The notes below the pieces were generated by a model. The model did not search any database. It had not been told where the DNA came from and was given only the letters and a program-made list of their open reading frames with translations. Positions 20,967 to 50,610 of a DNA stretch of 64,000 bases are shown piece by piece. Within the stretch, counting starts at the first letter, position 1. The number at the start of each line of letters is the position of its first letter. The stretch covers positions 1,746,945 to 1,810,944 of the forward strand of contig JAHDYR010000012.1 of assembly GCA_019828565.1 (NCBI GenBank), given 5' to 3'. The position numbers and the translations under genes are program-made. Source of the DNA: Carpediemonas membranifera BICM (taxonomy: Eukaryota; Protista; Fornicata).

Positions 20967-21078
20967 TGTGGTGGTCATAGACCACACTAATCATTTATAC
21001 AGTTTAAGCCATTTATTGGCACAAGGGTTTTCTCGTCTTCTTTCCCTGTAAAAGCATTCTCCGCATTAGCGAGGCACA
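20967..21078 (+). repeat. 5' LTR of element C
   Basis: Direct repeat of 39368-39479. Confidence 0.95.
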
Positions 21079-21098
21079 TTAACGTTAATTCCCCTCAA

Positions 21099-24000
21099 AT
21101 GCTGAAGAAATCCGATCCCCCGTTGCTGAAGTCGCCAGATCTGAACGAACTGTTCATCTTTGTGGACAAGTTCAACGATTACCGCGCCTTAGGGGGCAAG
21201 CGAGACATTGAGAAGCTAATCGACAGCGAGGTTCGGGAGATGGTGACAGCAATCCTACCAGCGGACGATCTTGACGACGCGGAGGAAGAGATCCCTCTCC
21301 TCCTTAATCAACATCATCGTGCCGCTCGCTTCAGAGCCCAGAAGGACCTCAAGATCATCAAGCGCCTAGGACGCGCTCTCAGACCTACTCAAGAAGTCAA
21401 CAAGCTCCGTCTCTTTAGAATCACCGCCAAGGACTTCTCCCCTATCGAAGTTGCTCGAGTCAACAAGAAGTTCCGTATTACCATGGCAGTCGTCCAACCC
21501 GAGTTCCCCCTCGAGACACTACGCGACATATACGTTCGTTGTTTCAAGTTCGGATCCAACCAGACGATGTACCGCATCAAGGAGGTGATCCAGGACATGT
21601 CGCTAGAAGATGCCATGCCGCGCGTTCTAGCCCTATCCAGAACAGTCCAAGAGAGCACCGCGATCGCCAACGCGTTCCAGGACAAGCCGTCCAACGCCGA
21701 GCACCACCACACGAGCCGTAACTCCCACCGACGCAACGATCGCAAGCCTCAGTCACGTCCCACCGAAGACCGTTCGCATGCTATCAACACGCGTCGACTA
21801 AGCCTATCGACAAGAAGGGCAGACGTGATCATTCACAGTTCACTTGCTATAACTGTGGTGGTAAGGGTCACGCCGTCTACGAGTGTAAGAAGCCCAAGAA
21901 CAAGTGTCAGAAGTGCGGGAAGAGCGGACACCTTGACAGGTTCTGTAAATCCCCACAGTACTTGTCCTTGTTCTCGATGACTTCACACAAACGCAAAGAT
22001 AGCCTACCTCTGTGCAAAGTTAAGGTCGAGGGTCGAGACGTCGTTGCCTTGATTGATTCGGGAGCCAACTGCTCCACTATATCCCCCAAGCTGACCAAGG
22101 GTATGACGCGTATATCAGATGAAGAGCGAAGCGTGCGTACAGCCAAGGGAACTATACAGTCCCAAGGTTCCGTGCAAGGGAACATCAAACTCATGCCGTC
22201 AGCCTTTACACCTAAGGCAGTGTCCTTCAAGCCGGAGTTGATTGTGCTAGATACTGAGTTCGACGTTGTCCTGGGGTACCCCCACCTTGTCGAGCTGGGA
22301 ATCCTCCCCGACGTGAACGTAGAGTCAGGGGAATACTCGGACGAAGTCCAGGTCCCCGAAGCTTTCAAGCACAACGCTGCCATTTTTAGTCTATCCGACC
22401 AGTCGACCAAGAGTCAAGCCGAACTGATCAAGAGGTTCTCCGATCTATTCCAAGACCGGGACGAACCTAGCAGGCTAGAGTCGTACGACCTCGTTCTGAA
22501 GGACGATCGGGTCGTGAACGCCAGACCTTACTATGTACCCCCAGCGAAGATACACGTCGTGAGAGAGCACATCGACACGCTGCTAGCCAAGAAATATATC
22601 GAGGCCTGCCAGTCACAATACGCTTCCCCAGCTATGACTGTGCCTAAGAAGGGAGGCAAGTCGCGTTTCGTAGTCGATTTCCGCCGTATTAACGAGCTTA
22701 CTGAGCCGTTCGACTACCCCATCCCTCGTATCGACGAGGTTCTGTCACAGCTCGCAGGACAGAAGATCTTCGCGACTCTAGACCTGTCGTCCGGGTACCA
22801 CCAGATCCATTTGACAGAACGATCAAGACCCCTGACTGCATTTACCACCGTACTAGGGCAGTATCAATACCGACGGATGCCTTTCGGGCTGCGCAACGCA
22901 GGAGCTCACTTCCAGAAGGCCATGGAGCGCGCCTTCGCCGGGCTCGTGGGCAGCTCATGTTACATTTACATCGACGATATTATTGTCTTCGGCAGCGACG
23001 AGGCCGAATATCTCGCGAACCTCGAAAGAGTCCTGGACCGTGCGCGTAAGGTCAAGCTCCAGCTCAATCGCGAGAAATGCCAATTCGGCAGGCAGGAGGT
23101 CGAGTTCTTAGGTTGGGTTGTCAATGATGGGCAGGTGAGCATCGCACCCAGCCGTGTAGACGACATCGCAAATCTCCAGATGCCGACATCCATCAAGGGC
23201 ATGCAGGGCCTAGTAGGATTCCTCAACTATTTCCGGGATCACATCCCCCATTTTGCGGAAATCGGACACCCGTTAATCAAAGCTATGTCCGGTCACACAA
23301 GTCTCGGCCTGACCGCCCAGCAGGAGGCCCTCGATAAGCTCAAGCAGAGCCTTACCTCCGCTGACGCCCTAGCAATTTTCGACGCCACGAAGGAGCATTC
23401 TATAATGACCGACGCCTCGGGAGTGGGGTACGGCGCAGTCCTATTGCAAGAGGGCAAGCCTGTCTGTTACATGTCGAAGGCCTTCAACGCCACACAGTCT
23501 CGTTGGTCAACGATTGAGAAGGAGGCGTACGCCATTGTGGCGGCCTTGCAGCGCTGGCGCAAGTTCCTTGCCTGGGGACCTTTCTCCATACTCACTGACC
23601 ACCGAAACCTTACCTTCATGTACCGTAGCATCAACCCGAAAGTCGGGAGGTGGGCCGATGCCATTTCCGACTTGGACTTTGAGATTAAGCACGTCGCCGG
23701 CCTGGACAATGGAGCCGCAGATGGTCTGTCCCGTGTGTTTACTATGTTCACTCGCAAAGCTACGACCGATGAGATTGAAGAAGCACACACCACCGCCGGC
23801 GCCCATCTATCTCGACGACTAACGACCGAGAAGCTTAGAGCCGAAGGGTTGTCGGTGTCGAGAGCCGCAGTCGACCAGGTGATTGCAGCTTGCCCGGTGT
23901 GCCAAGTCCTCGAGAGACCCCACGTCGATACACCGGATGGTCTGCATACCGCCGTTGATGAACCGTTTAAGCGAGTAGCCATCGACACCTTAGGTCCGTT

Positions 24001-25027
24001 CCCCAAGTCGCAGGGGTTCACGCACATCTCCGTCATCATAGATATGTGTAGTAGGTGGACCGAGTTGGTTCCAGTTACAGGTACGACTGCGCAAGCCGCA
24101 GTTACGGCGTTCGTTAATAACTGGGTCTTACGCTATGGCTGCCCCGGGGTCTTACAGACTGACGGCGGGCCCGAGTTTAACAATCAGCTCATGAAGTCCC
24201 TGGCCGACGAAATGGGTTTCCACACCCATGTTACGACTCCACATCACCCGCAATCTAATGGCATCGTCGAACGGGCCAACAGTGGAGTTCTCAAAATCTT
24301 GAAGGCCAGAAAGTTCCATTTCCGGGACGCGGACTGGGTCAAGCACTTACCTGTCGCACAATTTATCGTCAATTCGACGCCCAGGATACCCACTCACCTC
24401 TCACCATCCGAGATCATACTAGGTGTCAACATCAGGATCCCGAACGAGATCATCATCTGCACCCACTCGACTAGCGCCAGAATACAGGACAGACGCGCGG
24501 CGGCTGGCCAAGCCATCCAGCTAGCGAAGGCTAGAATTCAGGCAATGAGAGAGGACGCTCTCGCAAACGCCGCATCGTCACGTCAGGAGTTACTGTGCCG
24601 GTTCGTGTTGGTCAAGTACCCAGCCAGACCTCCCAACAAGCTGATGCCAGGATGGCGAGGGCCCATGCGACGGGTCAGTGCGGTTAAGCAAGATGGCGTG
24701 ACGGTCGCCTATGAAGTTCAGGACCTCAACCAGGGAAGCCAAGGCAAGATATTGAAGGTCGACGCCTCGCGCGTACGCAGATTTAACCCTGGCAATCTAT
24801 CCGAGCGAGAGATCAAGGACTTGGCCGCCACGGCGAACGATGAGTGGGAAGTGGACCGTATTTCCAAATCGCGAGGGAACGGAACACGAACCAAACGCGA
24901 ATACCGCATTCACTGGTCTGGTTTCGAGGACGAGGAGGCGACATGGCAGGATTGGGACTCCGTCAAGGACCTGGAAGCATTAGATATATATTTGAAGTCT
25001 GACCAAGCCAAACTGGACGGTCTATAA
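21099..25027 (+). CDS. Element C gag-pol (2 CCHC knuckles, protease, RT, RNase H, integrase, chromodomain), one frameshift at about 21722-21800
   Basis: CYNCGGKGH, LIDSGA, YIDD, MTDAS, TDGG, WEVDRI...YRIHWSGF. Close homolog of the single-ORF gag-pol of element D. Confidence 0.93.
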
Positions 25028-25069
25028 ATCTTCACCACATCTAATCGCTCCAGCGTCAAGTCATCAGAT

Positions 25070-25395
25070 TTATTCGTCGTCCGACTCCTCGGTATCGGTC
25101 AGCTCGACCAACCAAGACGCGTCAGCGTGGCGCTCAAGATCGTGCTCAGCAAGATAGTCGCGCACACAACGGACGAGACAGAGATCGGCGTTCAGCCAGA
25201 CGATGCTGAGGCCAGAGTAACCCTCATACTGGAGTATGAGAGCGAAGGTCCCAGGTCCACGAGTCGTTTTGAGGAATTCATGACGGATAACACACGTCAC
25301 GGTGTAGTAACGGTCCGGGTCCGAGACCTGAATAGGCTCCCAGTGGACCTCGTCACCGATCGCAGGCAGGTGACCCTCGCGACACAGCTCGTCGA
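25070..25395 (-). pseudogene. Element C antisense accessory gene, 3' part (chromodomain-like), separated from its 5' part by element E
   Basis: YYTVTCVIRH...LILQYEGYS...VRDYLAEH. Joins 37879-38408 in frame across the CCAGG TSD. Confidence 0.75.
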
Positions 25396-26499
25396 CCAGG
25401 TGTAGTGGTCCAAGACCCATCAAAAGATTATCGTGCAGTTTATGTAAACAGTCCATTGCTCGCCTCACGCCCCGCGTTCCGAGCGGGACGGAGTTGAGCA
25501 TGCCGACTCAGTCGACCTTGATGGCGACAGACTCGTGCTGGCCATGTCCACCAGGCAGCCGCCTGTACCACGCCCGGGCGGAGTGACCGGATTTATCCAG
25601 TCGACCATGCCCGTGGCGACCCGGCACATCCTCTCGACCCCACGTCCATCTCCTGGGGCACGGACGCAATTAGCTAATGATCCACGCAGCGAACAACCGT
25701 TCCACAGTCGACTTGCACCATGCAGTCGCCCGGACTCACGCGCCGGCGGCAACCAACACGACTGGACACATCGCTGCCCCGTTTGCCCGCGTCGAAGTGC
25801 CCACACTCGCCTGTCAGACCCCGCTCGCCAGCCTGCAGCACGGCGACACTTAGCCTGACCTTCTCCGTTGGAAATGTCCGGTATGGGAAGTTGACGAAAC
25901 CAACCGGAAAAAGGCCAAAAGCTGGCAATCGGGATTTATCGGATCTCATTGAAAGCTATTCGAGCTCGAAGCGAGCGACGGTGCCCCGCGGCGCCAGCAT
26001 CCACCAAATGGTAATTTCAGGACCAAGAGTTCGTCTGCTCTGGGGCACGAGAGCAGAAATGGGAAGTATTCTCCTAACCCACTAGCCATAGGGCACATTG
26101 GGGAAGCAAATTGCTCCCCGGAGGAGATCGCCCGTTGCGAAGCAGGTTAGCGCCAGAGCGGGCCGGCAGAGGACAACTGGCTGCTCCAGGTGAGGTGCGC
26201 ACCACCTCACCTGGAGCCCACTCCCCTGCCCTGTATACCTCGCCGTGCGCCAAGCTATGTCGAGCAACAGATGATCGTCCTCGTGTGCCCAAAAATGCAC
26301 AGAGGCAAAAACCACCCAAAAGGGAATAAGTTAGCCTCGGTAGGAAAGCGTTGACAGAATACACAGTACTCTAACAACAAACAAAACCTACCGCCCATGC
26401 TCCTGGGACCCACAAGGGGACCAGACGCAACTAAACGCTCCTCGCACAAACCCACAAGGGAAATCAACGCGAACAAGCGTACTGCGCCACCTTTATGAT

Positions 26500-29400
26500 T
26501 GAAACCCCTACCGTAACCGGTACCCGCAGTAGGCCCCAGAGGCACTGCGACACGATTGCCTCAGACAACTTAACTGGGGCCATATGGCAAAGTAACCCGA
26601 GAGCACCGGGACCGGCGGCCAATAGGCTCTCACTGGGAGGCCACTGGGCCACACTACTCCGGCGCCCGTGCTCTCATGCCGCCCAAGACCGGGCTTGTGG
26701 ACGTCATTGCCACGAGAGCCGGGATCGCCGCCCGCCGCCGGCATAGGCAACAGGGCCACCACAACAGGCCCCCAGTACACCAGCCATACCGGACAACAGA
26801 CCGGGAGCGCTGAGGGCCCCGTCCACAGCCCCACAAGAAACGCCCAGCCGAAGCCAAAAGGCATAAACCATCACGGTGTTTACCAGGACTCACAACCTCT
26901 TGGGAGTGACGCGACCCAGGAAGGAAACAACCGGGCTGCGACCACAAGATACAGGACGAGCGGCGTGAATGGCAACCAGCTGGTGCAGCCGGGCGTCTAT
27001 GCGAGCACGAAGGCGCTTATAGACCCGCATTTGGCCCCTCAGCTCAGCGTCGAAACCCCGAGCCGACTTAGACTCGTGGGGACTCAGGTCCTCGTCACGG
27101 TAATTCTGAGCCAGGTAGGAAAAGGCAGCGGCACGCTCCCGCCACCGGCTGGCCAGGACGTCCACCTGGGCAAAATCGTCAGCTATGGTCCGCAGGAAAT
27201 GCGCCTCCCAACCCCGAGGAGTCGCCGGGCCAGGAGTCGGGGACTCCCGAGAAGGAGCGGTGAAGCCCCTGCCGCCACAAGGCAAGGGACTACCCTGGGG
27301 CCCGGAGGGGAATATGGGATCCCCCGTCGGAGTGCGAAGAGGGCCCTGCTTCCCGGGAAAGAGGCGGCGCCCCCGAAATCGGAGTCCAGGCCGTACTCGG
27401 GCCAAGGACTCGATAGGGATCGGAGTGCATAACCCCTGGTAATGCACCTCCCCCTCTGGGGACCGCTGGGCAGCGGAGGCGCCGGCCGAATGGCCAGGAG
27501 GAGGCGTGAAGGTGGAAGGAGAGATGGAACGGACGCATGGGGAATAAGGGACAGCAGCCCCGTGTGGGGCGATGCTCCCTGTCCCTGCAATAAGGTTCCC
27601 TTTTGGGTTTTCGCCAGACATGTTTTGTGTGGAAACAAGGTCCGCAACAAACCTCGCATACCTCGCCCCTGAACCATCCGCCCTGAGGAAGGGAAAGGAG
27701 CCATACAAGACCAGGACATCGCTGGCTGGCGCCCCTTGGAACCTCCACCAAACCTCCTCAAGCCCCTCCAAGAAGCTGGCAAAAGTGCACTTCCCGCCTT
27801 TTGCCACTCCAAATGGAAACAGGGGAATATCCCAACAGGGACATGCCAGATAGGGAAGAAAGCATGATTTATGGCTTATTCGCCCTTAAGGCTGCACCCA
27901 GAAGGGATCTCAGGAAAACCAGAAGGGAAAAAGCAAATACGTCCATTATCCAGCTCGGCAACGCGATAGGATACGACAAGATTGTAGACCCAGAACAGGG
28001 AAGCTTTACAGCAAAGGAAGGCCCAGGGGAGCTCCGGAAAAGCCGGGCCAAGAAGCTGTTTGCATCACTTCCCCTCCTGAGACGGTACACAAAAGCCGCC
28101 CAACAGCCATACTGGCTATTCATTGAAGGGAACCGGCTGGACCTAGAGCAGGCGGAGACACTAAGCCGGCTTCGCCCAGGGTCCCCCAAATTTGTGTTCT
28201 ACCCCAGAGTCCAGGCGGACTACTCCAAGTACGTAGCACATCCCCACCGGACGAGCCAGACGGCACCAGCTAGTGATCAACACACCCCATCACTTCTCCC
28301 CGTGGAGGAGGGCCTTGATCTCGGCCGAATCCATAACCGGGACTTTTCGAGACCACGCCACACAATGACCTCGAACAGCTCCCAAAGCGTCCCAGACGCC
28401 TTGGATTGCGCAAACACCACCCCAAATGGGATCAAGGAGTCGTTAACGCCACTGGGCAAGCAACTGGCCACACCGGACGAATGGGACTGCATCAGAGCCT
28501 CAGCAGATGCGGCTATTCCCACAAGGGACGTTGCCATGGTCTTCACCAGAGATGACGCAACGGACTTCACTGCCCGAACGGGAAAGGTCGCAAGGACGCT
28601 CCTCCTAGAGCTCGTGGCAACATCGCTGCAAGCTGCAGGACATTCTTCGATCTCAGGCAACGGCATCCAGACCAAGTACGGGATGGAGGCTGCAATGTGG
28701 CTCCTCCATGCCGCCGGACACGCCATCTCCGCGGGAGCTGCAGCCAGAGGGCTCCCCCTCACTAGGACGCGAAAACAAGAAGCTCTGGGCCGACCTAGGC
28801 CGGGAACTAGCCAAAGGGCAAGGCTACCACGCCCCTCACCCCCCGGAGGGAGGTTTCCGCAGACCAGACGGCACGCCCATCCAGATCTGGACCCAGGGCC
28901 CCGTCGAGGAGATCCTCATCTACAGCAGAACCGAGGGTGTGATGAGGCCAGTCTTCCCACCCCCACCCCTGGAAGAAGAGCCTTCGGCAGCAGAGGCAGA
29001 CCTGAGGGAGGAGGTCAGAGACCTCATCCAACGGTGGTCAGTCCCCGGCTTCCCCGAACTCTGGTCGGCATGGGATAAGACCAGGCGTCTCTGGCCCCCA
29101 CCCGCGAGGATTGCCCGCGAACTGGTGTCTGCCTCCTTTCTGACGCGCAACATCACTAACTACTGGCTCACAACGGGGCAGACCCAAGTTATAGAGCCCG
29201 TACGGGACGGGGCATCTCATGGAGCCCTGGGTACTAACGAAGAAGAAACCCCCCTGGGCCCGAGCGGCAGCAGGACTTCCGGCCCTGATGACACACCCAC
29301 CACGCCAAACAAGGGCACATGCGGGCCCAGCATGGGAGCTAGCCCGCCTCGTTCCAATATCACCCAACGAGCCAACACCACCAGGCAGTTGATCGCTATG

Positions 29401-31653
29401 GTGGACTTTGAGGAAGGAAGAGCCAGATCCAACCAAGGATACGAGGCCATCATTTGCGAAGGGGCGGCACTGATTTTCGACCCAGCTAACGAGCAAATCC
29501 TCTACTACATGCACGGGATGCTTGGGGAAGACATCACAGTGGATGCCCTGGACCAATGTCTGTGGGCCACGCACTACATCCATGGCTGCCCACCAGCTAC
29601 GTTTGTCGACGTCACCACGGGCAAAGCCCCCAAGGGATACGAAGCAGACTTCCCCCACGCCAAGCGATGGTGCACCGAGATGGCTACAGAGCTGAAGAGA
29701 CTGGAAGACGACTCGGGGCCACAGAAGACCCACGTCCACATCGTGGCTAAGGGAGTCGAGGCTGAGAGAAGCATCCTGACCAGTGAGAAGTTCGTCCCAG
29801 ACGGGAACCTCCGCACCTGGCTAAGCTTACGCCTCATGGATGAAACTGACCTCAACACGATCTTCCCCAACATCCTCGACACGCTGACCTGGTTCTACCC
29901 CCAATAGTGGGGAGAAGAGCCTCACCGGCCTCCCCTCCCGACCCCAGTCCGAACTGGGCCGGACCTGGACCAGAAGGTACCAACAGCGCCCGGAGGCAAA
30001 ATTGGTGTGCCCCTATCACAAGCACGCACCCCACCACTGCCACGGCGCCCTAGCAGATGTCTCCATATTCTACGCCAGACTAGCAACAGCGTTCTGGATG
30101 AGAGACAACCCAGGCTGGGACTGGGGGCAGGTAGAAGCCCACCTCACAGCCCTAGGAAGCATGCTCATGGGCAGGGAGTCGCCGTACCATGATGAATACA
30201 AGGACCTGGCGACCAAAGTCAACGCCAGACACGGCCTCGGCACCGTGGCGGCCGGTCGCCTAACCCCATTGTCCCAACAAGTCAACCTCTTTGGCACCAA
30301 GAACCCCAAACGGGGCCAGATTATCATGACCAACTGGGAGGAAAACGATTTCAGCTCCGGAAAGGGTATCACCAGAGCCCTGGAAGGAACAGCCGTGATC
30401 ATCGGAAACCCAGAATCGCTCGCGAGAGTAGGCGAACTAGCGCGACCCATCCTCCTGGAAATCCACTCGGAGTGGAACGGGCGCCGCCACGCTGTCCAAG
30501 ACGGTTTCCCTTGGGCGAACCTGAGGGGGAGCCCACGGAAATAGACGCGGAAAAAGATGCTTACTCTAGACGTCAGCGACACCAAAACGATGACCCTATC
30601 CCAAGCGGCGTCTTTGATGCCCGTCCACAAATTCGACATAGCTGGAGGCCACATGGGCAGAGAAGCCAGGAAGAAGATCTTCAACTACTTCACGGAGGTC
30701 CCAGCCGACGATCGAGAACTCCTGGCCAACATGTGTGTCGACCCGGAGACAGGCTCCATCAACTTCCTCCCCTCGTTCCTCCCCCGGGACTGGGGTATCA
30801 CGGATGAACCAGCAGAAAGAGGAAAGAGGCGAGTGGGCACCTTGAGGAGCGCCTCCTGGATAGGCAAACTCGCCCTGGCGGGCTCAGGCGTGGAACACCC
30901 AAAAGGGGGGAAGCCATGGGACACGCTGAACTGTGTTTTCCCGGAAGGCGCCAGCACTAACACCAAGAACAGACTGAGGACCGAGAGGAAGCAGGCGCTT
31001 CGAACAAAGGTGAGACGAAGGGCTACTGAACTCGCCAAGATGCTCCACAGGAGGACGGAGGTCTACCTGCCGAATGGCGGCATAGGGGGCCTATATGGCC
31101 CTCCACGCGGGCAAATTGTCACTGAACAACCGCAAAGTAGCAGGACAGAGCGAACAGAGCCCGGGCCCCCTCCAACTAAGAGCTGTGCCCCCCCCATACC
31201 CCCCAACCCATCAGCCAAGACCCGCCAGGTCAGACAGGTGGACCAAGAGGACCTGCAGCCCAAAAAGAGCACGACAGGAGGACACCGACCTGGGCAGAGG
31301 CATAGCGGCCCTGCTGGACCAAGCCATGGCCCGGCGAGAAGCAGAGGTCAGACAACAGCTGGAAGAAGCTGCAGCCAGAACCATCAACGAGCTCAAGGCC
31401 AAAAAGCCAGGAGCTGGAGGAAGAACGGGAAGCCCGGAGAGCAGCCCAAGCTGCGTTGGACGAGATGCGGAAGGACCTCAGGAAGACAACGGAGAAGTGC
31501 TCGTCTCTAACCGAAGAGAACGAGGACTTACTCAGCCGCGCGGCCCGACTCTCGGCGACCAACGAAGCCCTCAGCTTCACCCTAGCAGCCAAGATGGATA
31601 ACTTCAGGTCTGACCTGAGAAGGAAGAGAGGCGAGGAGAAGGAAGGAGAGTAG
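26500..31653 (+). pseudogene. LINE A ORF1 region (frameshifted, about 5 kb): DEDDh exonuclease, degenerate SF1 helicase-like motifs, C-terminal coiled coil
   Basis: Chain of overlapping plus-strand ORFs (26668, 27572, 27801, 28708, 30002, 30557, 31456). Motifs MVDFE, HYIHG, VAKG..AE..IL, CPYH...HGALAD, ARTGKV.RTL, LTPLSQQV, ITRA...VIIGN. The start is uncertain. Confidence 0.6.
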
Positions 31654-32226
31654 AAACAATCATAAGTAAGAGGTGCAGAGGGTAGTGTGATATAAGTCTG
31701 AGCTAAAAGTGTATATATGAACCAGCATGTATGGCCAGGCTGTGACTAGTAGGGCCTTAAAGTCCAAATGGACACCGGCGAACCATTCCGGCGGGAGCAA
31801 AAATGCAACACATTCTTTTTCAACAAACCCCTGTGCCCCACAGGGGCCGGGGGCAGGGTTACCAAAAGGTAAAAAGAGCCCTGCCTGTCCGGCAGGCTGT
31901 AACTCCAGCCTTGGGAGGGGCAACAACCACTGTCGCTCCCACCTAAGCTCGTTAGGTAATGGTCCTGCCATGCGGCGAGGAAGGAAGCTAAGCGGAGACC
32001 GGCAGCAATGCCGACAAGCATCGTGAGGCCCCGACTGTGAAAGGGAATGGTATGCCCTAGGCCGGGAACTAAGGGAATACAGGCACAAGCCTGCCCAAAA
32101 AGGAAACGACTGCTCGGTTAGAGGCCTCAGCAACCCACCAAAAGGTACGCCCAAAAAGGGAATGTCTACAAAGAGCAGATTAGTGCGCGCAGGGTAACTC
32201 CCGCAGTTTATGTCAGAACAACCTGA

Positions 32227-35200
32227 ATGAGAATAATATCGCTAAACAGCGAAGGGCACCTAGCGGGCGCAAACGATTACAGCGGATCCATAGCTTTATC
32301 CATCCGCAAGAGGATAAGGACTGATGCGATCCTCCTCCAGGAAACCAAGCGGTACGGTAATACCACCATCCCTTGCTGGGTAGATCTCCAGTACGCCTGT
32401 GCAGGAGAGGTCAAGCCATTAGAGGCAACGCGCAAGCGACCCACAAAGGGACTGGCCACACTGATTAGCCCGCACTCCAAAGCGGAATGGGACGTAGGCG
32501 TGTCCGACGGGACGAACCCACGAATCCAAGTAAGCATCCTCAAAGCATCGAGGGCCACGGCAGTCATCAATATCTACGCTCCCGATAGTGGATGTGCACG
32601 ACCCGAGATTGAGGAGTTCGACCGGATGCTAGAGCAAACCGTCGCGAACTATGAGGGGTGTGACATCATCATCATCGGGGACTGGAACAGGAGGCCAGGG
32701 AAACTCAGGCAAGCAACTGCGATGACCCTCCAGCGATGGAACCTCACCCCAATAGCACCAACTGCACCGACGTACGGGACTAACTCCCGAACGTCCACAA
32801 TAGACTATGCAGCGGTAACAGGGGGTATCCAAAACCCGGTTGTTAGGGTAATAGACAAGACCACAATCGGGCACTGGGGGTCGGCACACAAAGCCATAGA
32901 GCTCACCTGGGATAGCAACCCGACAGGGAAACCAGAGATATCAAAGAGACTGGAAATCCCACGGATCGATACGTGGCTGGTCAAACCCAGGAGAACAGGG
33001 CCCAAGCTAGAAGAGTGGCCACCACTAGACAGCAAAAATACCAGTGGACGAGATGGAGACTCTCATAAGGAAATGGTTGTCCACCGGGTTTGCTACTCCA
33101 GAAGGCACCCATTCGCTGTAGAAAACCAGGAACGTATCCCTAGTGAGGTATGGGAACGGCTGGCCAAAGCCTCCACCTGGAGCAAAAACCGCCGCCAAAG
33201 ATATCAAAAAGTCCCACAACGGAGCACTGAGCAGATCATGGAGGACCTTCCAACATGACTGGAATGAGCAGGTTGAGGTTGGATCCCGTGATGGGTACAA
33301 AACGACAAAAAGGATCCTCGCAAACCAAGTGTTCCGCTTCTGGAACGAGAAGCAGCACGCCGGTCTCCCGGTGATGCTGAAGGCTGGAAACAAGATTCTA
33401 GCAAGGCAGAGGGAGATTGCAGACTCCCTCCAGGAGCAGTACGCGAAGGTAAGCTCCGGGAAGGAACCCACCTGGGAACCCACCTGGGAAACCGAGCCGG
33501 AAACGGACATGGAGGACCATCCGCCATCGCTTGAAGAAGTGACAGCGGCGGTCAAGTCCATAAGGAAGTCCTCGGCCGGAGGCCCGGACGGGATTATTGG
33601 AGATTGTCTGAGGGACCTCCCCGAGTCAGCGTACGAGGCAATCACAGTCCTGCTCGCGAAAGTATACGACAGCGGGACCATGCCAACCACATGGAAGTAT
33701 GCAGCGGTGTCGCCTATCCACAAGGTTGGGAAGGACAAGCTCACGCCCAGCTCGTACAGACCGATCCCCCTCACCCCCCCTCCTATACAGAGCCTACGGG
33801 AGGATACTGAAATGGCGCCTCAGGCCGACGGTGGAGAAGTTCATCCCCAGAGAGCAAGTTGGGTTCATGAAAGGGAAAACTGTAGTGGATCACATAGCCC
33901 TCCTAGCCCAACTCCACCAGTCCGGAAACCGTACCAGCGTCCTACTTGACATAGCAAAAGCATATGATACGGTCCCAAGGGACCTGCTGGTGAACAAGTT
34001 GACGCTCATGGGGGTACACCCAAGACTGACGAGGGCCATCCGAAATACACTTACAGAAACGTACATCTCGGTACGAGGGGCAAGCACATGGTCCAGAACA
34101 AACATGGGGGTCAAGCAAGGATGTGTGGTGGCCCCCACTCTGTTCATTCTCTTCACAGCTAACTGGCTAAGCCAGGCGGCACTGTACCTCCGGCATAGAG
34201 AGATCCCGGACCCCTGCCTCCCTCCAACGGACGATAGGCCCAAAAACTGCCTCATTGCAATGTTTGTAGATGATACAAGCATCTCAGCCGAGACCCCGCA
34301 GCTCGCCGAAGAAGGCACAGACGCAGTGGTCAGGGTAATTGAAGCCCATGGACTCCAGACCAGCCCAGGCAAAAGTGTGGTGATAAGTACCGACGTAACT
34401 GCAGCGGTCAGCATCCAAGGAACTCCCACACTGGCGTCAGACTCAGCAAGGTATCTGGGACTCTGGCTAGCCAGCGGGAAGAATCCGTTGGCAGCATGCA
34501 TCAAAAATGAAGACGTCACAATCCCGGAAATACCTAGCCCTGGCAGGAGAGCAGGGTGGACCAAAGGATCCACCCCGGCCGCCACCTCGGAATCCATCCT
34601 CAGAACCTTCCTCTGGCCCAAGATCGAGTTCGGGATCGAGATCTGGGGGCCAAGCGCCAGGGGAAGAGCCATCTGGAACAACTGGCGCGGCCTAATGGCA
34701 GGCACAGGACCAGGGGGAGGAGGAGCCGCCCGTGTACTAATGGGATGGATGTGCTGGGAGGCAGATATGGGGCAGAGAGCGGTGAGGCTCTATGAGTCTG
34801 CGCACGACCCGGACCGTCCGCCCCCCTAGGGAATCTGGACTGGGCGACAGCGGAGAGAGGATCGGTCTTACATCGCCTCTACCAATGGCGACGGAGCGTC
34901 CTCCAGGGCACACAGGAGGAGATGCCCGCCAGGGAAAGAGCAAAGAGGGGAGGCTGGACCCTCACAGCAGAAGAACTACTGCACACCGGGGAGCCGAACG
35001 GCCAAAGGGGTGGCAACAGTACTAGCCCCGGAAGTCATCCTCAGCATGCAGCAAGGGAAGAGACCCAAGAAACCAGGAATGATCAAGGGTGAGATGATAA
35101 CCAGACGGGAAGTCAAGAGAGTAATCATGACTGCATCCAACACACTCCCCTCCCCCAGCAACAGTGGCAGAAGCAGAGCCATACTTGGGAGCGCGATCGG

Positions 35201-35601
35201 CCAGCCCCAGGCCCTCCTGAGCAGGATCAAGCGGTGTTGCCCCCTATGTACCCTGGACTCAGAAGGTGACACCATTACTCGCCTGTACACTGTCACCAGA
35301 ACCGCGGCGGAAACCACCAAAAATCCTCTCAGAATGGGCATACAACCAGCCCCTGGGAACACAAAGCCACATCATCTGCCAATGCAAGGCGGTAGAACGC
35401 CCAGAAGGATGGAATGACATCCTGGCGGAGGCGCATCTACGCACACAGTACCACGCCCTAAGGCAAGGGCAGGAGGCGGAGTGGTACAACTCAAGGGCAA
35501 TCCTGGAAATGCTCTGGCTCCTCCGCAGCGAGGACCATACCGTCAGAGAGGGACTGCAGAACGGCAGACGTGCCCTTCTGAACCTCCGAAAAGATGGGTA
35601 A
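32227..35601 (+). pseudogene. LINE A ORF2: AP endonuclease, reverse transcriptase and C-terminal zinc finger, with frameshifts and stops
   Basis: SLN, LQETK, NIYAP, GDWN, IDY and SAH (APE). SAGGPDG, YRPI, LDIAKAYDTV, GVKQG and FVDD (RT). CPLC...HIICQC. Confidence 0.93.
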
Positions 35602-37784
35602 GTACACCATCCCAGAATCCTATGACCTCTGGGACCAGGGTCAAACTGGGACCCAACCCCCCGCCTCAACCGAAGCGGAGCGCTCCTGGGATCAGCGGGG
35701 GACGCAAGCCCCACGTATCCCGGTAGCACCCAGCCGCGGAAGGGGGACTCAACCCCGAACACTAATCTCGCTAACACACAAACGCTCACCCATACTGGGA
35801 ACGTAGACAACATTCAGCCGGCAGAACCGGCACACTCTTCACACGTATAAGAAATAACCCAGAGCCATAGGGCGGGGCACGTATGCACATGTATACACGT
35901 ACGTGCGAGGTATCGGGGCGCAGCAGCCAAACAGGAGGGTAACCATAAGGCAACAATACCACCTGGGCGGCACCTGGACCAAATCAGAGCTGCGCCGAAC
36001 GGCCCGGCACCCAAAACTTGGAACCAGCCGGAAGCTAGGAAGAAGCCCTATAGGGAACAAATCCTTGAGGAGGGGATCCATGCCGGAACGGAAAGTGTGG
36101 AAGAGCCCGAACGCAGCCGTGAATCATATAGCTACCCAGCGATGATCGGTGGGTTTCATAACTGGCCCAATTGCGTGGTACGGCAAACGCCAAGCCCGAA
36201 ACCGCTTCGGCGGGTGCCTGAAAAATTGCAAACTGGGTCGAATGGTATGGAGAACATATCCCTGAGAGGAGCCCTGTAGGGGGAAACCGAGCAGAAGGCC
36301 CCGGTGGCGGGTGTGCAGGGCAAGGCCTTGCGGGTGCCAGGCAGAACGGGGGCCCGAAGGACCCCCAAGAGTAAGACCTGGGTTATCCCGACTTTGGGGG
36401 TATCGGGCCAGCCAGTTGATAGGTCAACATGCAAGGGACTACCCAGCCTTACCAGCTGGACCCTGACGGTGATGGTGCTAACGCCCCCAACGTAGTATCA
36501 GGCTCGCTCACGAAGGGAAGTCAACACGCTAAGGCGTTCCCGGGGACATGGGGTGGTGCAAACTGGTAATTCCCTGATTTACACAGGTGTACAGGATACG
36601 TTAAATTTCTTTCTTTCTTTCTAGCCTGACCTTCTCCACGTCCGCTGATGCATGTCCGCTCTCATCGCACCGTCAATGTGGAGTTTGGCGGAGTGTGTCG
36701 GCTGGGCCTCATTCAGTTGACCCAGTCGACGGCAGACCAGTCCACGCCTATGGAAGGCATAGTCACCTGTCACGTGACATCGGGACACGTCAGCACATGC
36801 TCCGGCCTGCCTAATGTCGGCAATCTCCACGACGCCTGCTCACCTGAGCCACTCTTAATCAGCTAATCCTCACTGCTCCTCCCTCCACATGAAGTGGCCC
36901 CCAGTTTCCTCGCCCTTGTTTCAGCTTGGGTGATGACTGCCGGTTAGGGCAGCGCGCGTCCCGTTTCACCCAGACGATAACTGCCCCAAATCCGGCCCGG
37001 CCGCTCGCGCCATGGCGCAGCTCACCCGCCACGCTTCTGCCTCATTGCCAGTCCTCGACTCGCCCTTGTCTTACCCTGGGTGACGAGGGGCCGGCCCTGC
37101 CTCTCCCATGACTGGGACAGCCAGAACACAGCAGCTGCCACGTACTCCCTTCTGACACCTCGATGCTTGTCGACTCGACTAGAACGACGCGCGTTTCACC
37201 GCCGTCAACGGTCATTCTCATCAGCCCAGTTTCCGAGTACTTATCACCTCCGATGTGCTATACGTCCTATACGTCTCAGCTGTCGCTGTCGACAACATAA
37301 TTCGCTTCGAACTCACGCATGTGAATCTTATCGAACGTCGACTGATGGCACAATACCCGCTTCCGGAGTCCGCCCCGTTCTCATTAAGGCGGGGTAGAGT
37401 GCAGCACCCATGTGCAGCCGTCACGGCAACCATGACCGCAGCATTTCCTGCCACTGAGAATCCTCATTCCCGTGTTCCTTCGCCGATCGGCGCTTCAGTC
37501 TCATGCTAAGCCATCTCAGGTCCCGCTCGAAGATGCCGCACCTCGCACCACCACCGTTTGCCGCGTTTCCCCTGCTTGATTTGACTTGGCGCATCGCCTT
37601 GGACGAGATCTCCGTCCAGTATCCTTCGCCCTCTCGGGTCCATCAGCAGCCGGATGTCGCGCATCCTCCATTTCATATCTGCCATATCTCTTTGATCTCT
37701 CGCAGACCGCTTACAGTATACCTTGTCTCGGATATTACACTCCCGACTTCCAGTTTCCAGTACAGGCGTTGAGCGTGGGGGCAG

Positions 37785-37878
37785 TGTAGTGGTCCAAGAC
37801 CCATCAAAAGATTATCGTGCAGTTTATGTAAACAGTCCATTGCTCTTCTTCCCATCCTGACCTGTGGGGACTATCACA
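37785..37878 (+). repeat. 3' LTR of element E (94 bp)
   Basis: First 61 bp identical to 25401-25461; TGT...ACA termini. Confidence 0.88.
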
Positions 37879-38609
37879 CCAGGGTCGCCCAGAAGGCGCT
37901 GGGAGCTGAGATGCAGCGGCTGATCCCGAAGAGTGCCACTCGGAAGTAATCGGGCGAGAGGACGAGGATCAGCAGGCGGTTGAGGTATCCGCGAGCCGTG
38001 GTATCCGACGTGACACCGGCAGCAGCGCGAAATGCGGCCACGAGCCCGGCAGAGTAGCGCCCACTACCGGTCAGGCTGATGTCGCCACTCCGGAGGGCTG
38101 CTGAGACGATATCGCCATCAGTGAGCGTCGGGCACAGCTTGATCTTGAGGTGGGTCACCACCCCAGCGAGAGCGAACTGGCAGTAAGCCACGAGGTTAAG
38201 AATCTGGCGAGACTTCTTAACATCGGTGACTACCGCGGCGTCGTGGAGGTGACCCTGCTCAATGGCGTCGAAGATACGCTGAAGAGGCATTTCAATCGAG
38301 TTGCTGTAGCCATTCAGGCGCCGGGAGACCTCAGCTCTGATGTCGCGGGGAAGATTCATAGATGCTGTCACGGGTCGAGTAACACGCTCTGCGGCTTGTA
38401 CACGGTGCCTGGATGAGTGGTTGATTGATATTTGTTACTTACAGGTTACCGGAGGCCAAGCGCTTGCGCTGAGTACGTGTTTGAGCACGAAGAGAACGAC
38501 AGACGGCGGAATGAGCGGAAACAAGAGGCTTAGTGAGTTCCTCACCAATTTCGGCGGTTTTAGCGCGAATAGTATCCAGAATTGCTTCTACGGCGGCGTT
38601 GTCCGACAT
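37879..38609 (-). pseudogene. Element C antisense accessory gene, 5' part, with 34-nt intron (38409-38442)
   Basis: ATG 38609 (MSDNAAVEA). Removing GTAAGT...CCAG joins ORF 38439-38696 in frame to ORF 37874-38371. The reconstructed protein is 340 aa. Confidence 0.75.
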
Positions 38610-39367
38610 CAACTGAGTTGACGGCGACATATTCTGCACTTTTGGAACAATCGGTTTCAGGACGAAACCTAGAGCAGTAATAGGACGCCAAATCAAGCTA
38701 ATTCATCTATTTACTAAGCGCTGTAGCCTATTAGCTCCATCGGAAGCCGATTGATGTTGTTAATGAAGTACGAGCGCGCCAGGAAAAATGAAAGGCCCAA
38801 AACTCGCCAACGAAGGCCTTTTGGAGCCTCTTAATGCCTTTTTCGGCGTCTGCGTAAGTTTCAGCGCAAATGGTACAGTACTTCTTCTTATTCTTCTAGA
38901 CGCCGAGATCAACCCTCGAATTACTTAGAAGCATGCGTAACACGTAATATTTTTCGAGACACGGCCATATGAGGCCGTGGAGGGGCAGGGATAAGCCTCT
39001 ATGAATACGGGCGAACCCTAGCCGTCCGTTTGACTGTCATTGACGTCGGTAAGTTCGGACCCTATATGCGGTTCATGAGGGCGGCGAAGCCCTGGTAAGA
39101 CCATCTTAACACGTAACATAGCAATTGCTTACACAGTGGATCCACGTTATCATATACAGCTGTCGGGTTTTATTCCCATGTCACCGTTGGTGATACCATA
39201 ATTCCGTATCGGAAGACCGCGGGTCGGGCGTTGCCCACTCCACTGCCAATGGAGTAGACCGTTGCATAGCTTGGGTGGCACCAAACTATAACACGGATGA
39301 CCCTAGGCCAACCTAACCCCCGTAACTCGTTGAGTGTCATGCCTATTACCCAGGCATGGAGGGGCAG

Positions 39368-39479
39368 TGTGGTGGTCATAGACCACACTAATCATTTATA
39401 CAGTTTAAGCCATTTATTGGCACAAGGGTTTTCTCTTCTTCTTTCCCTGTAAAAGCATTCTCCGCATTAGCGAGGCACA
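39368..39479 (+). repeat. 3' LTR of element C
   Basis: Direct repeat of 20967-21078. Confidence 0.95.
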
Positions 39480-41216
39480 AGTGTGCATATCGGGCATATT
39501 CTTTGGATACGGTCGCAGAGCATTTCCTGCCCAGGGTACCTCCTGCTTATGATGAGCGCGGCTCCTCGAGTTGTGTGGCTGTTGCTAGCGGAGGGGAGCG
39601 TGTTGGAGGCTGTTGCAACTACCCTCTTCAGCTCCCTCCTGAGCATCATCTCCCCTCTGATAATCTTTGGTTTCTTGGGTGCTCTCCCGCCTGCCATTGT
39701 CTGCATTGCCTCCGCAGCTAGCACTTCGGCGGCCGCCTTGGCTGTTCGGCTACCTTTGGTGACGATGTCTCGTGCTGTCATCTTCCATCCCCCGGCTATT
39801 GCTCTGGGTCTGGGTCCGTGAAGGTCGCTAGGGGCCAGATCTAGTACGTTGTCTGCTCACTTGTTCAGCTTTCCGATAACGGACTTGGGGTTCGCTCTTC
39901 CCCAGTCGAAGTCCGCTAGGGGCGATGGGCGGTCAGGGTCCCGGGCCGATTCGCGGATTCTAACCGCTCTTACACCCATGTCCGCTTCCCAGCACATCCA
40001 TCCCATCATCAGGCGGGCGACACCCCTCCACCGGGTCCGGTTCCCGCCATGAGTCCTCGCCAGTCGTTCCAAAGCCTTCTGCCTCCTGGGACTTGGCCCC
40101 AGATTTCGATTCCGAATTCGATCTTTGGCCATAGGAAGGTGCGGAGGATGGACTCGGAGACAGCCGCGGGCGTGGAGCCTTTAGTCCATCCCACTCTCCG
40201 GGCGAGGGCGATGTACTTGTTCGACTGTTCTCTTTTCTTTTGCGATGCATGCGCTGAGCGGATGAGGGCCACTTGCTATCCAGAGTCCCAAGTATCGGCC
40301 TGACTCCGCTGCTCGGGTGGCCTCCCCTTGAATTCGCACTTCCGCATTTGGATTGGTACTTATGACGATGTTCTTTCCTGGGCTGATACACAGCTTGTGT
40401 GCCACTATCACTTCCACCATTGCGGCGGTGAGGGACTCCGCATCATTTTATTTCTTTGCCGAGATGCTCGTATCGTCTACGAACATTGCTATGATGCCAT
40501 TCCCGGGTCTGTGGTGGGTGGGGGGAAGCTTCGGGTCTGGTATCTCGCCGTACTGTATTCTGAGTGACGCCTGGCTAATCCAGTTGGCCGTAAATAGTAT
40601 GAATAGGGTGGGGGCGACCACGCAACCTTGCTTGACTCCTAGGTTCGTTTCGGACCATAGGTCGGATCCCCTTACCGCAATGTAGGTCCTCTCCATTTTG
40701 CTTTGTACTGCTCTGACTAGGTGGGGGTGTACACCCATATTGATCAGCTTGCTGACTAGGATGTCCCTGGGAACCGTGTCGTACGCCTTTGCAATGTCGA
40801 GCAGCACGCTGGTCCGGTCTCCTTCTTGGTGCAGTTGGGTTAGGAGGGCGATGTGGTCTATGACTGTCTTTCCCTTCATGAAGCCGATCTGCTCTCCGGG
40901 GGTGTGCCTCTCAACTGTTGGTTTGAGCCTCCATTTGAGTACCTTCCCATATGCTCGGTAGAGGAGGGGGGTGAGTGAGATGGGTCGGTAGGATCCTGGC
41001 AGTAGCTTATCTTTCCCTACTTTGTGTATCGGGGAGATGGAGGCGTACTTCCACGTGGTGGGTAGTTCCCCAGACTCGTATACTTTCTGGAAGAGGCATG
41101 CGATTGCCCTGTAGGCCGCCTGGGGGAGGTCTCTCAGACATTCGCCCGTGATACCATCCGGGCCTCCTGCCGATGATTTCTTCAGGGACTTGATGGCGGC
41201 CGTGACCTCCTCCTCC
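39480..41216 (-). mobile_element. LINE B, RT portion (5'-truncated)
   Basis: KSSAGGPDG, LDIAKAYDTV, GVKQG and MFVDDT; highly similar to LINE A ORF2. Confidence 0.92.
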
Positions 41217-41218
41217 TA

Positions 41219-41233
41219 CTTACCTTACCTTAC
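41219..41233. repeat. (CTTAC)3 telomere-like pentamers at a junction
   Basis: CTTACCTTACCTTAC at the truncation point of LINE B. Confidence 0.75.
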
Positions 41234-41475
41234 TTCTCTGGTCCGAGCTCTGAATTCCTCGGGTCTGGTTCTGGCGCGGCTTGGGGCGTCCTGGGGCGCG
41301 ATCGCTGCCAGGGACGTCTCTCTGGCCCAGAATTCCTGGGGTGCGCCACATGAGGACCTGTGGGTCTGAAGTGTGCGATCAAGGGCGCCTGGTCTGAAGA
41401 CTTCGCCACACTTGGGGCACCTCCATAACGTCGCCCTCTCCGCGTGGTACTTGCGCGCATCACCGGGGCCGATGT
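41234..41475 (-). mobile_element. Short fragment encoding a C2HC zinc finger, probably from the N-terminus of an RLE-type retroelement
   Basis: Manual translation WRCPKCGEVF...QTHRSSC. Confidence 0.4.
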
Positions 41476-42871
41476 TCCTGGCTGCCCAGTCGATCGGTGA
41501 GCCATCGACTCAGATGACTCTGAACAGTTTGTATCTTTTCGTATCTACACGCGTTACGCAGCTTTCCATCTTGCCGGTCACGGCGCCGTTGATGTCACCC
41601 AGGGCATCCCCCGCATGCGTGAGGTCCTCCTCGTCGCCACGAAGTCGATCAAGACACCCGTCATGAACCTCCTCCTCCGGCCCCACGCCACGCGCGAGGA
41701 CGCCCAGGCTCTTGCCGGTCTCTTGCGCCGTATCTCTTTCATGGACGTCCTGACGAAGATGGAAGTCGGCGAGCGGGTGGACCAGAGCAAGACGGCTTTC
41801 GGCACCCGCCGTGAGCGTGTCTTTACCCTGTACATGAATGTCCTCGGTGAAGAAGACCGCAAGGCCCTGGGGCTCACGGTCGCCCGCGTCAGGCTGGGAG
41901 TCTGCCGGTTCATCGCGATGATTGCCTCTGGCCTCTCGCGCGAGCTCAACGCCGTCGACGATATGGACGACCTCGCCTCTGGATTTATCGACGATGAGGT
42001 GCATGGTAGCTCTAACGCTGCTGCTGAAGAAGCTGACTCGGCCAAGGACGCCAGCAACGCCCGCCAGACCCAGGAGGGGCAGATGTACGGCGCCGACGAC
42101 AATGGAGAGCCCGCCCGCACCGAGCGACACAGCGCTGCCGCCGTAGACGCCGACGGCGAGCTCCTCGAAGGCAACGAGAAGGTGCTCATCAACAAGGCCA
42201 AGCGGTCATATCTGGATCAGATTTCGCTGCCCGACGACAACGACGACTTCTGCTGGGCATCATTCAGGGTGCCCCTCTCTGACCAGAGCGTGCTCATGAC
42301 GTCGATGGCCGAGGAGCTCGCCAACAAGGTCAATGTCAAGGCCATTACCGGCGTCACGCGCGCCTCTGTCGGTGAGCCCAAGACCGTTGACGGCCAGACT
42401 CGTCAGGTTGTCGCGTGTAACGGTGTCAACCTCGCCACCGCCCGGCAGCACGACGAGCTCGTCGACGTCGACCACCTCTACTGCAACTGCGTGATGACAA
42501 CTCTCGAGCAGTACGGTGTTGAAGCTGCTCGCGCTGCCATCATCAACGAAGTTTCCTCGATCTTCAAGGTCTACGGTATTGGCGTTGATGCCCGCCATCT
42601 CTCGTTGATTGCCGACCACATGACTCGAGAGGGCGGCTACAAGCCCTTCAACAGGCACGGTATTGACAACTCGCCGTCCCAACTTCACAAGATGACTTAT
42701 GAGACCACCACCGCCTTCCTGACACAGTCGGCTCTGTACGGAATCTCCGACAACGCCGCGGGACCCTCGTCTCGCGTGGCGGTCGGCCGGCCCCTTCGGG
42801 CGGGAACAGGCATGGTTGACATCCTTCTCGACATGCAGGACCAGGAGCTCGGATGGAGCGTCAAGGAGTAA
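41472..42871 (+). pseudogene. RPA1: RNA polymerase I largest subunit, C-terminal fragment only, with 35-nt intron (41527-41561)
   Basis: LAAQSIGEPSTQMTLN|TFHLAG is restored by splicing. YGVEAAR, RHLSLIADHMT, GGYKPFNR and KMTYETTTAFL are Pol I-type. The N-terminal part of the gene is not in the window. Confidence 0.88.
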
Positions 42872-44592: not shown

Positions 44593-44713
44593 TGTAGTCC
44601 GTTAGGGACAAGAAAGCTTTACAGGGAAAAGAGACGACACCAAATGTGTCGACAGAAACCTGAAGACGATGTAAATAATACAACTATGTAAATATTGGGT
44701 AAGACCCACGACA
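44593..44713 (-). repeat. 3' LTR of element D
   Basis: Exact repeat of 50611-50731. Confidence 0.97.
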
Positions 44714-45363
44714 CCGCCCCTCCATGGACCCCAAAGGGGCCATGGCCTCAGGCGTATGCCACTCGAACGAATGTGCGATGAGGGACTTGACCAGTCCCGA
44801 GACCTCCGATGCCACTCATTGGTCTACGAGACTCTGTACCATGGCAGGGTACAGGGTGAATGCCTTGTTCAAGTCGGGAGCCAGAATTGGCGGGGTGAAT
44901 CTGAAAGATTCGGAAAATATCTGCGGATCTCAAAATCCTATCGTGGTACCACTTGTTAGCGCGCTGTGTAATTAGAATGATCTTACGTGAGGCATTCCGC
45001 CCCTCCACGGTCGTAAAACGGCCGTTTGAATATTGATTAGATCAAATGAGCGCCTAAAACTGCTCACTGTGATGATCTTTGTGTTTCTCTTGGTATGTAC
45101 TTCACGTCGCCGTCCTTATTACATAGAGATCGAAAAACGTCATTAGAAGCCTCAATTCGGCTTCGTTCGCGAGTTCTCGCGTTTTTTGCTCTCGACGGTG
45201 CGACGTTCTCTCTCGCGGCTGCAAAAGGCCGCGTTCATCCTTAATAACATCAATCGGGCTTGAATTAGCCGTAAAACAGTGTCTTTCAAGTTCCATTGAG
45301 GTTGGTTGCTACTTCTTTCGAGTTGTTGTTTTCTCAGTGAAAACGGGAAGTGACGAACAAGCA

Positions 45364-46608: not shown

Positions 46609-46641
46609 GATAAAGGTTTGGATTGAGTAGCTGCTGAAGGT

Positions 46642-50592: not shown

Positions 50593-50610
50593 GGCTTGAA
50601 TTTCTAGAAA

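What the first reader, a model, noticed from the sequence alone, without database searches (positions are those of the whole stretch)
25070..38609. Spliceosomal intron inside a retrotransposon's antisense gene
Seen: the C antisense gene can be rebuilt as exon 38609-38443, intron 38442-38409 (GTAAGT...CCAG, 34 nt), exon 38408-37879 and, after removing nested element E, 25395-25070. This gives 1023 nt, one open frame of 340 aa. The intron size matches host introns here (29-35 nt). Inference: the intron survives reverse transcription because it is antisense to the genomic RNA, like a natural retro-indicator cassette. This implies a separately transcribed, spliced mRNA under selection.
Basis: partly seen in the sequence, partly recalled or inferred. 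Interest (0 to 1): 0.75.

Follow-up and report, generated by a model that had tools for sequence, protein, structure and literature searches.

The report
Spliced antisense chromodomain gene in retrotransposon
A jumping gene of a free-living anaerobic protist carries, backwards behind its polymerase gene, an extra gene whose 34-base intron is missing from a public contig of a sister copy, and whose protein ends in a predicted chromodomain that likely reads histone marks to help the element escape silencing.

Summary
Observation confirmed. The pieces join to 1023 nt, 340 aa, without a stop. A public contig of an uninterrupted sister copy skips exactly the 34-nt GT..AG intron and the nested element E (the run is only guessed to be RNA, strand unknown). 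A second, diverged copy keeps a 34-nt intron. Eight of 9 listed exon-1 differences are synonymous. Host proteins cluster with Carpediemonas membranifera. Relatives of 31-88% identity occur only there. New: the C-terminus is predicted to fold as a chromodomain (Z up to 6.8, below the tool's safe level), so the element would carry a second one beside its integrase's. Corrections: the 'indicator cassette' analogy is mirror-imaged; host intron sizes were not confirmed; this copy is broken. Antisense genes between pol and the 3' LTR are known (Grande, Retand, Boty), as are spliced antisense retroviral genes, and this scan noted spliced ones in other genomes. Verdict: new variant of a known kind.

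The parts
20967..21078 (+). 5' LTR of Ty3/Gypsy element C (112 bp, TG..CA), preceded by target-site duplication AGTG (20963-20966)
   Evidence: 1 mismatch in 111 compared positions against the 3' LTR
21099..21980 (+). gag, frameshifted in this copy; a sister contig has 7 more bases at 21783, a length that would put gag in frame with pol as in element F
   Evidence: fusion is inferred from lengths
21977..25027 (+). pol: protease, RT, RNase H, integrase, C-terminal chromodomain
   Evidence: RVT_1 4e-34, RT_RNaseH 1.1e-25, rve 3.8e-10, Chromo 7.8e-06
25070..25395 (-). 3' part of exon 2 of the antisense gene, ending 42 bp from the pol stop
25136..25312 (-). approximate stretch coding for the predicted chromodomain, three tyrosines at the aromatic-cage positions
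   Evidence: (model of sister protein P0015)
25396..37878 (+). nested element E (25401-37878 plus one copy of its 5-bp target-site duplication): full 94-bp LTR at 37785-37878, truncated LTR at 25401-25461, a LINE inside, no Gypsy pol found
   Evidence: skipped by contig X1 record 3
37879..38408 (-). 5' part of exon 2 of the antisense gene
   Evidence: family matches
38409..38442 (-). 34-nt spliceosomal-type intron (GTAAGT donor, ACTCAT next to a YAG acceptor), phase 2
   Evidence: skipped in X1 record 3, kept in X2 record 6
38443..38609 (-). exon 1 (55 codons + 2 nt); basic stretch near its end is a candidate nuclear localisation signal (inference); alternative in-frame ATG at 38630
38747..38772 (-). 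26-nt motif shared (85%) with the region upstream of element F's antisense ORF; candidate promoter or leader element
   Evidence: (pair I7); function inferred
39355..39367 (+). purine-rich tract abutting the 3' LTR (polypurine tract)
   Evidence: read from the sequence
39368..39479 (+). 3' LTR of C, followed by AGTG (39480-39483)

Best explanation
Element C is a Ty3/Gypsy retrotransposon whose family carries a two-exon antisense accessory gene; its 34-nt intron is absent from a sister-copy contig, likely through host splicing of a separate antisense mRNA, and the 340-residue product ends in a predicted chromodomain that likely binds methylated histone tails to counter silencing of the element. 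Steps. (1) Shown: layout LTR-gag-pol-antisense gene-LTR, 6,030 bp without E. (2) Shown: a joined form without the intron, and a diverged copy with it. (3) Inferred: the sense genomic RNA reads the intron as CT..AC, is not spliced there, and so every new copy inherits it; C itself is a recent copy (LTRs 1 mismatch apart, duplication intact) and has it. (4) Inferred: an antisense promoter between the ATG and the 3' LTR, or in that LTR, makes the mRNA; splicing removes an in-frame stop and adds the 55-residue N-terminus. (5) Predicted: helical N-terminal and central regions of unknown fold, then a chromodomain and an acidic tail. (6) Inferred: the protein enters the nucleus, sits on methyl-lysine chromatin (H3K9me more likely than H3K27me) and acts in trans for the family, competing with or redirecting host readers. 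My odds: gene and intron real 0.93; chromodomain fold 0.8; chromatin-reading accessory factor 0.6; of that, anti-silencing about half.
For: Open 340-aa frame. Both joints in one 805-nt contig. X2 record 6 runs ungapped through the donor to 38425; its 30 printed loose letters match window 38395-38424 without gaps, by eye: 6 of 16 intron positions differ while ACTCAT and YAG are kept, and 3 of 14 exon positions differ, all synonymous. 8 of 9 listed exon-1 differences are synonymous, plus an in-frame 3-nt indel. P0015, 75% identical to P0004, matches exon 1 residues 1-34 at 57% (E 1e-10) and resumes at the first residues of exon 2. Family members down to 31% identity keep the same layout of blocks. 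Model residues 239-304 match chromodomains: 29 of the top 30 rows are chromodomain-family proteins by title, Z 6.8 to 4.2, rmsd mostly 2-4 A over 41-62 residues; Foldseek gives prob 0.85-0.92 to four chromodomain rows. Three cage positions are Tyr in 4 of 6 antisense sequences aligned. E(z) is reported absent from the metamonads studied (bioRxiv 2021.07.16.452543, passages). Precedents: Grande gene23 is transcribed antisense from its own promoter and nuclear (PMC7264820).
Against: Each joint rests on one contig. Outside exon 1, 3 of the 4 listed X1 differences change the residue. Six differences (1 in X1, 5 in X2) were counted but not listed, so are unclassified. P0015 and P0010 lack 21 residues at the end of exon 1, including the basic stretch, and their DNA was not seen; sister F's ORF has no intron in its coding part, so the intron is not universal. 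The model is middling (pLDDT 59.6, pTM 0.46); no Z reaches 8 and no Foldseek E reaches 0.001; Pfam and PDB sequence searches find no chromodomain. P0012 lacks the second half of the domain and F's third cage position is Arg. That P0012, P0014, P0015 and P0017 lie antisense in LTR elements was not tested. No binding or function was tested.
Confidence: 0.6

Rival explanations
1. Same gene and intron, but the protein is an integration-targeting adaptor: it binds the integrase or cDNA complex and its chromodomain steers new copies into particular chromatin, such as other transposons.
For: Integrase chromodomains promote heterochromatin localisation (PMC11728184, passage). The window is full of nested elements (E in C, a LINE in E). 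The predicted domain keeps candidate cage residues.
Against: Pol already has a chromodomain with aromatic residues at the three positions. A separately expressed protein would have to reach the particle or the integration complex in trans (inference).
Confidence: 0.2
2. The intron-less contig is DNA: some genomic copies lack the 34 nt through deletion or intron loss, and present-day copies with the intron are not spliced and use the ATG at 38359 or are dead.
For: X1's RNA status is a guess. The window's own gene model (P0003) and P0004/P0014 start downstream of the intron.
Against: The skip lands on GT..AG with a full GTAAGT donor. The intron-bearing X2 copy has 5 synonymous changes in exon 1 and a diverged intron of unchanged length with kept splice signals, which needs splicing to make sense. 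Precise intron loss would itself imply a spliced RNA (inference).
Confidence: 0.07
3. The antisense RNA is the main agent: it converges on the pol end and limits the element by double-stranded RNA or transcriptional interference; the protein is a self-restraint factor or secondary.
For: The two stops are 42 bp apart, so the transcripts must overlap the genomic RNA. HBZ represses its own virus and its RNA has separate activity (PMC10186651, passages). Non-coding multi-exonic antisense RNAs occur in Arabidopsis Copia elements (bioRxiv 2024.04.02.587720, passage).
Against: Synonymous bias and a protein family conserved down to 31% identity show selection on the protein. This rival is compatible with a chromodomain protein that represses rather than de-represses.
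Confidence: 0.13

Closest known systems
aORF-3R class: antisense additional ORFs between pol and the 3' LTR (maize Grande gene23, rice RIRE2, Silene Retand, bean PvRetro13)
   Same: Position, orientation, conservation across copies; Grande gene23 has its own antisense promoter and a nuclear product (PMC7264820, parts 1-2 of 3 read; PMC11963269 passages).
   Different: The Retand lineage is non-chromovirus, mostly with TRP28 domains; no Pfam family matches this protein. The passages read report no intron in these ORFs, and the 2020 review asks for a search for antisense spliced transcripts. Host here is a metamonad; product has a predicted chromodomain.
[quoted passage not shown] 2011)
   Same: [quoted passage not shown]
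   Different: Paper not held: seen only as a citation. That brtn has introns is implied by unchecked notes of this scan, not verified. No fungal protein appeared in the homology searches.
HTLV-1 hbz and HTLV-2/3/4 aph antisense genes
   Same: Spliced, protein-coding antisense transcripts of an LTR retroelement; nuclear regulators of the element's transcription (PMC10186651 passages).
   Different: Retroviruses, promoter in the 3' LTR, bZIP-type products that overlap sense genes; here a dedicated non-overlapping gene with a 34-nt intron and a predicted chromodomain.
Integrase chromodomains of chromoviruses
   Same: Same predicted fold; same element carries one on pol.
   Different: Here the second domain sits on a separate antisense protein and is not a recent copy of the pol domain: profile scores against the three pol chromodomains were no better than shuffles (51, 200 and 27 of 200).
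Retrotransposition indicator cassettes (antisense reporter with an intron)
   Same: A gene placed antisense inside the element, with an intron.
   Different: Their intron is sense to the element and removed during transposition (PMC12786077 passage); this intron is sense to the antisense gene and retained.

Membership tests
Ty3/Gypsy LTR retrotransposon | Two LTRs with TG..CA ends, target-site duplication, polypurine tract | tested here: met
Ty3/Gypsy LTR retrotransposon | Domain order PR-RT-RH-IN | tested here: met
Chromovirus clade | Chromodomain at the integrase C-terminus | tested here: met
   residues 957-1006, above the Pfam cut-off
Chromovirus clade | RT phylogeny within chromoviruses | not tested
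   no reference set; chromodomain-bearing Gypsy lineages outside chromoviruses exist (PMC12477816 passage)
aORF-3R | ORF antisense to gag-pol between pol and 3' LTR | tested here: met
aORF-3R | Present and conserved in other copies of the family | tested here: met
   sister contigs X1, X2 and models P0004, P0014; share of copies not counted, no genome held
aORF-3R | Transcribed antisense from its own promoter | tested here: inconclusive
   GT..AG polarity of the skip points to the minus strand, but contigs show no strand or start
Spliceosomal (U2-type) intron | GT..AG ends with donor consensus; removal restores the frame | tested here: met
Spliceosomal (U2-type) intron | Absent from RNA, present in DNA of the same family | tested here: inconclusive
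   absent from X1 contig, present in window and X2 contig; X1 not shown to be RNA
Spliceosomal (U2-type) intron | Branch point and lariat | not testable with these tools
   ACTCAT beside the acceptor is kept in X2; branch-like motifs abut the 3' boundary in two C. membranifera introns (PMC1201135 passage)
Chromodomain | Three-stranded sheet plus C-terminal helix | tested here: met
   predicted only; Z 6.8 at best, under the tool's safe level of 8
Chromodomain | Sequence match to PF00385 | tested here: not met
   none of 8 antisense-family sequences or pieces
Chromodomain | Three aromatic cage residues | tested here: met
   Tyr at all three in 4 of 6; positions set by alignment to pol chromodomains, cage assignment recalled
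Chromodomain | Binds methyl-lysine | not testable with these tools
   needs a binding assay
Retro-indicator cassette | Intron sense to the element, lost on transposition | tested here: not met
   intron is antisense to the element and present in a recent copy (definition)

The most novel reading that the evidence does not exclude
Several LTR retrotransposon lineages of this metamonad carry a second, free-standing chromodomain protein on a spliced antisense gene, a histone reader of their own that occupies methylated chromatin on element copies and displaces the host's HP1-type readers: a retrotransposon anti-silencing factor built from a silencing module.
Probability: 0.3. Interest if true: 0.75.

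Novelty: new variant of a known kind. Interest (0 to 1): 0.5.

Why it matters
Antisense extra genes of LTR retrotransposons have been known for decades without an assigned function, largely because their products have no recognisable active part. This one has a spliced form on record, measurable selection and a predicted, assayable domain, so it turns 'what do antisense ORFs do' into a peptide-binding and localisation experiment. It extends the layout to Metamonada and shows that a tiny host-type intron can ride through reverse transcription on the unspliced strand.

Tried and rejected
No whole genome is held, so copies were not counted. The run search listed no holder on record as RNA. In one search, X1 covered 7 of 30 bins, with no cover over most of pol or over E, and X3 none; lack of cover and depth differences are not used as evidence. 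A read control on host genes and element F could not be obtained, which leaves X1's RNA status open. Host intron size: scans gave candidates; 3 were tried with Pfam and none was bridged. P0011 (Photobacterium repeat protein) rejected as a repeat artefact and left out of alignment A1; P0009 left out as a fused model. Pfam, PDB sequences, BFVD and the ESM Atlas (unnamed Ascomycota clusters at 0.91 and below, leads only) named no family; the central helical region was not folded alone, so it is untested rather than novel. Element F's antisense ORF: no homologues, unusable model (pLDDT 35), family profile E 0.98 though the best non-self hit of 1,501 segments, chromodomain-stretch score beaten by 3 of 200 shuffles: homology suggestive only. 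Recent duplication of the pol chromodomain rejected. Literature: searches (listings and abstract starts) showed no paper on Carpediemonas retrotransposons or on an antisense ORF with a chromodomain; the genome paper's main text has 0 hits for 'transpos', its supplements were not opened; Zhao 2011 is not held and Steinbauerova 2011 was seen only as a citation, and either may describe introns in such ORFs.
Full report
What is in the sequence. Element C runs from 20967 to 39479, with 112-bp LTRs one mismatch apart, a 4-bp target-site duplication and a purine tract before the 3' LTR. Its pol reads protease, RT, RNase H, integrase, chromodomain. The 34-nt gap begins GTAAGT, ends CAG, is AT-richer than the exons and stops the frame if left in. 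Element E sits between two copies of a 5-bp duplication, so its removal is dictated by the sequence. Without E, C is 6,030 bp. This copy is broken twice: E cuts the antisense product at 233 residues, and gag is out of frame with pol.

Host. Five of 10 proteins looked up were in the collection; three of these share a 90% cluster with proteins named Carpediemonas membranifera. No whole genome was available.

Is the intron real? The run search returned three runs of one sample, all 'RNA?' by guess and kept as contigs. Laid on 21000-40500, contig record 3 of X1 (805 nt) skips exactly 34 bases with CT..AC ends on the plus strand, which is GT..AG on the minus strand, and also skips E. It therefore comes from an uninterrupted sister copy; three of its differences match gene model P0004. 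Record 6 of X2 is a more diverged copy that runs through the donor into the intron; its printed loose end lines up without gaps with window 38395-38424, with 6 of 16 intron positions changed, the branch-like ACTCAT and the YAG kept, and 3 of 14 exon positions changed, all synonymous (compared by eye). In exon 1, 8 of 9 listed differences are synonymous in the proposed frame, against 26-30% expected (P = 1.5-4.3e-4), and the one indel is 3 nt. Against this: 6 differences were not listed and are unclassified; 3 of 4 listed X1 differences outside exon 1 are non-synonymous; each joint rests on one contig; X1 is not shown to be RNA, and a host-intron control could not be obtained. An intron-less DNA copy remains possible but does not explain the X2 pattern.

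The protein family. Searches found relatives only among C. membranifera models: 6 hits in the 1.84-billion library, of which one is the window's own and one a bacterial repeat artefact, and 3 and 4 hits in the word-index searches. P0004 and P0014 (88% to each other) and P0015 (75% to P0004) read across the E site; P0017 and P0012 are 31-33% identical to these. P0015 begins with a 57% match to exon 1 residues 1-34 and resumes at the start of exon 2, but lacks 21 residues between; its DNA was not seen. Whether the distant members lie in LTR elements was not tested. Element F in this window (pol 64% identical) has a 414-aa antisense ORF in the same slot, with no intron in its coding part and a shared 26-nt upstream motif; its homology to the family is only suggestive.

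What the protein looks like. Pfam and PDB sequence searches name nothing. An AlphaFold2 model of P0015 on alignment A1 (mean pLDDT 59.6) has helical N-terminal and central parts and a three-strand-plus-helix C-terminal domain. Against 48,161 solved chains, 29 of the top 30 rows are chromodomain-family proteins by title, aligned to the C-terminal domain (about residues 236-304), Z 6.8 to 4.2. The tool warns that Z under 8 can be a common arrangement, and Foldseek found nothing at E 0.001, so the assignment rests on the uniformity of the list and on tyrosines at the three positions that align with the aromatic residues of the pol chromodomains in 4 of 6 sequences. It is not a recent copy of the integrase domain.

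How it most likely works. New copies are made from the sense RNA, on which the intron reads CT..AC and is not a substrate; it is inherited. A minus-strand transcript is spliced by the host, which removes the stop and attaches the N-terminal 55 residues. The product is most likely a nuclear reader of methylated histone tails acting in trans for the family. Anti-silencing is my first choice, integration targeting the second, self-restraint the third; none was tested. E(z) is reported absent from the metamonads studied (passages), which favours H3K9 over H3K27 methylation as the mark.

Comparison with what is known. Antisense ORFs between pol and the 3' LTR are a described class (PMC7264820, parts 1-2 of 3; PMC11963269, PMC6317226, PMC4408406, passages), including the fungal brtn (citation only). 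Spliced antisense genes are established in deltaretroviruses (passages), and multi-exonic non-coding antisense RNAs in Arabidopsis Copia elements (passage). This scan's own unchecked notes list spliced antisense genes in fungal, animal and other elements. So an intron in such a gene is not a new principle. The indicator-cassette analogy is reversed. What I did not find in nine searches (listings only) is an antisense accessory protein with a chromodomain, or this layout in a metamonad; two key subscription papers and all supplements were not seen.

Verdict. Observation confirmed, interpretation partly supported, new variant of a known kind. Interest 0.5; 0.75 if the protein proves to be an anti-silencing histone reader (probability 0.3).

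Noticed in passing
window 45364-46608 (+), element F 44593-50740: Sister Gypsy element with single gag-pol ORF and a 414-aa antisense ORF in the same slot, ending in a chromodomain-like stretch; stop 33 bp from the pol stop.
   Followed up: partly
window 45093-45126 (+): A 34-nt GT..AG candidate upstream of F's antisense ORF; removing it would join a 7-codon exon to a frame open for 79 codons before the 45364 ATG. Could be a second case of the intron, or chance.
   Followed up: partly
window 38747-38763 (-), 45241-45257 (+), 52740-52756 (+): 17-nt motif upstream of both antisense ORFs, with a 2-mismatch copy at 52740; the first two defined the pattern.
   Followed up: partly
window 39092-39136: Intron-like GTAAG..YAG strings on both strands at the same place upstream of the antisense ATG (41-42 nt); not skipped in X1 record 4.
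   Followed up: no
window 38972-38998 and 39350-39375: X1 record 5 (615 nt) shares two short stretches with C's 3' non-coding region and is otherwise different: probably a related family with its own antisense leader.
   Followed up: no
window 25401-37878: E has one full and one truncated LTR, no Gypsy pol, a broken LINE (32227-34829) and unnamed ORFs at 27813-29907 and 30557-31510; likely several nested pieces.
   Followed up: partly
protein P0009: Its match to the family ends within two residues of the point where E interrupts C, then continues as unrelated sequence; an insertion hot spot or a gene-model artefact.
   Followed up: no
window 2196-2708 (-), element A 1607-6275: In element A the chromodomain lies in a separate ORF downstream of the integrase ORF, sense to pol; frameshift or separate expression not examined.
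   Followed up: no
window 41528-42871 (+): RNA polymerase Rpb1 domain-5 fragment directly downstream of a minus-strand LINE (39893-41212); possibly an interrupted gene.
   Followed up: no
window 16055-16080, 41215-41235, 51624-51710: Short CTTAC/GTAAG tandem and palindromic repeats that mimic splice donors, one at a LINE end.
   Followed up: no
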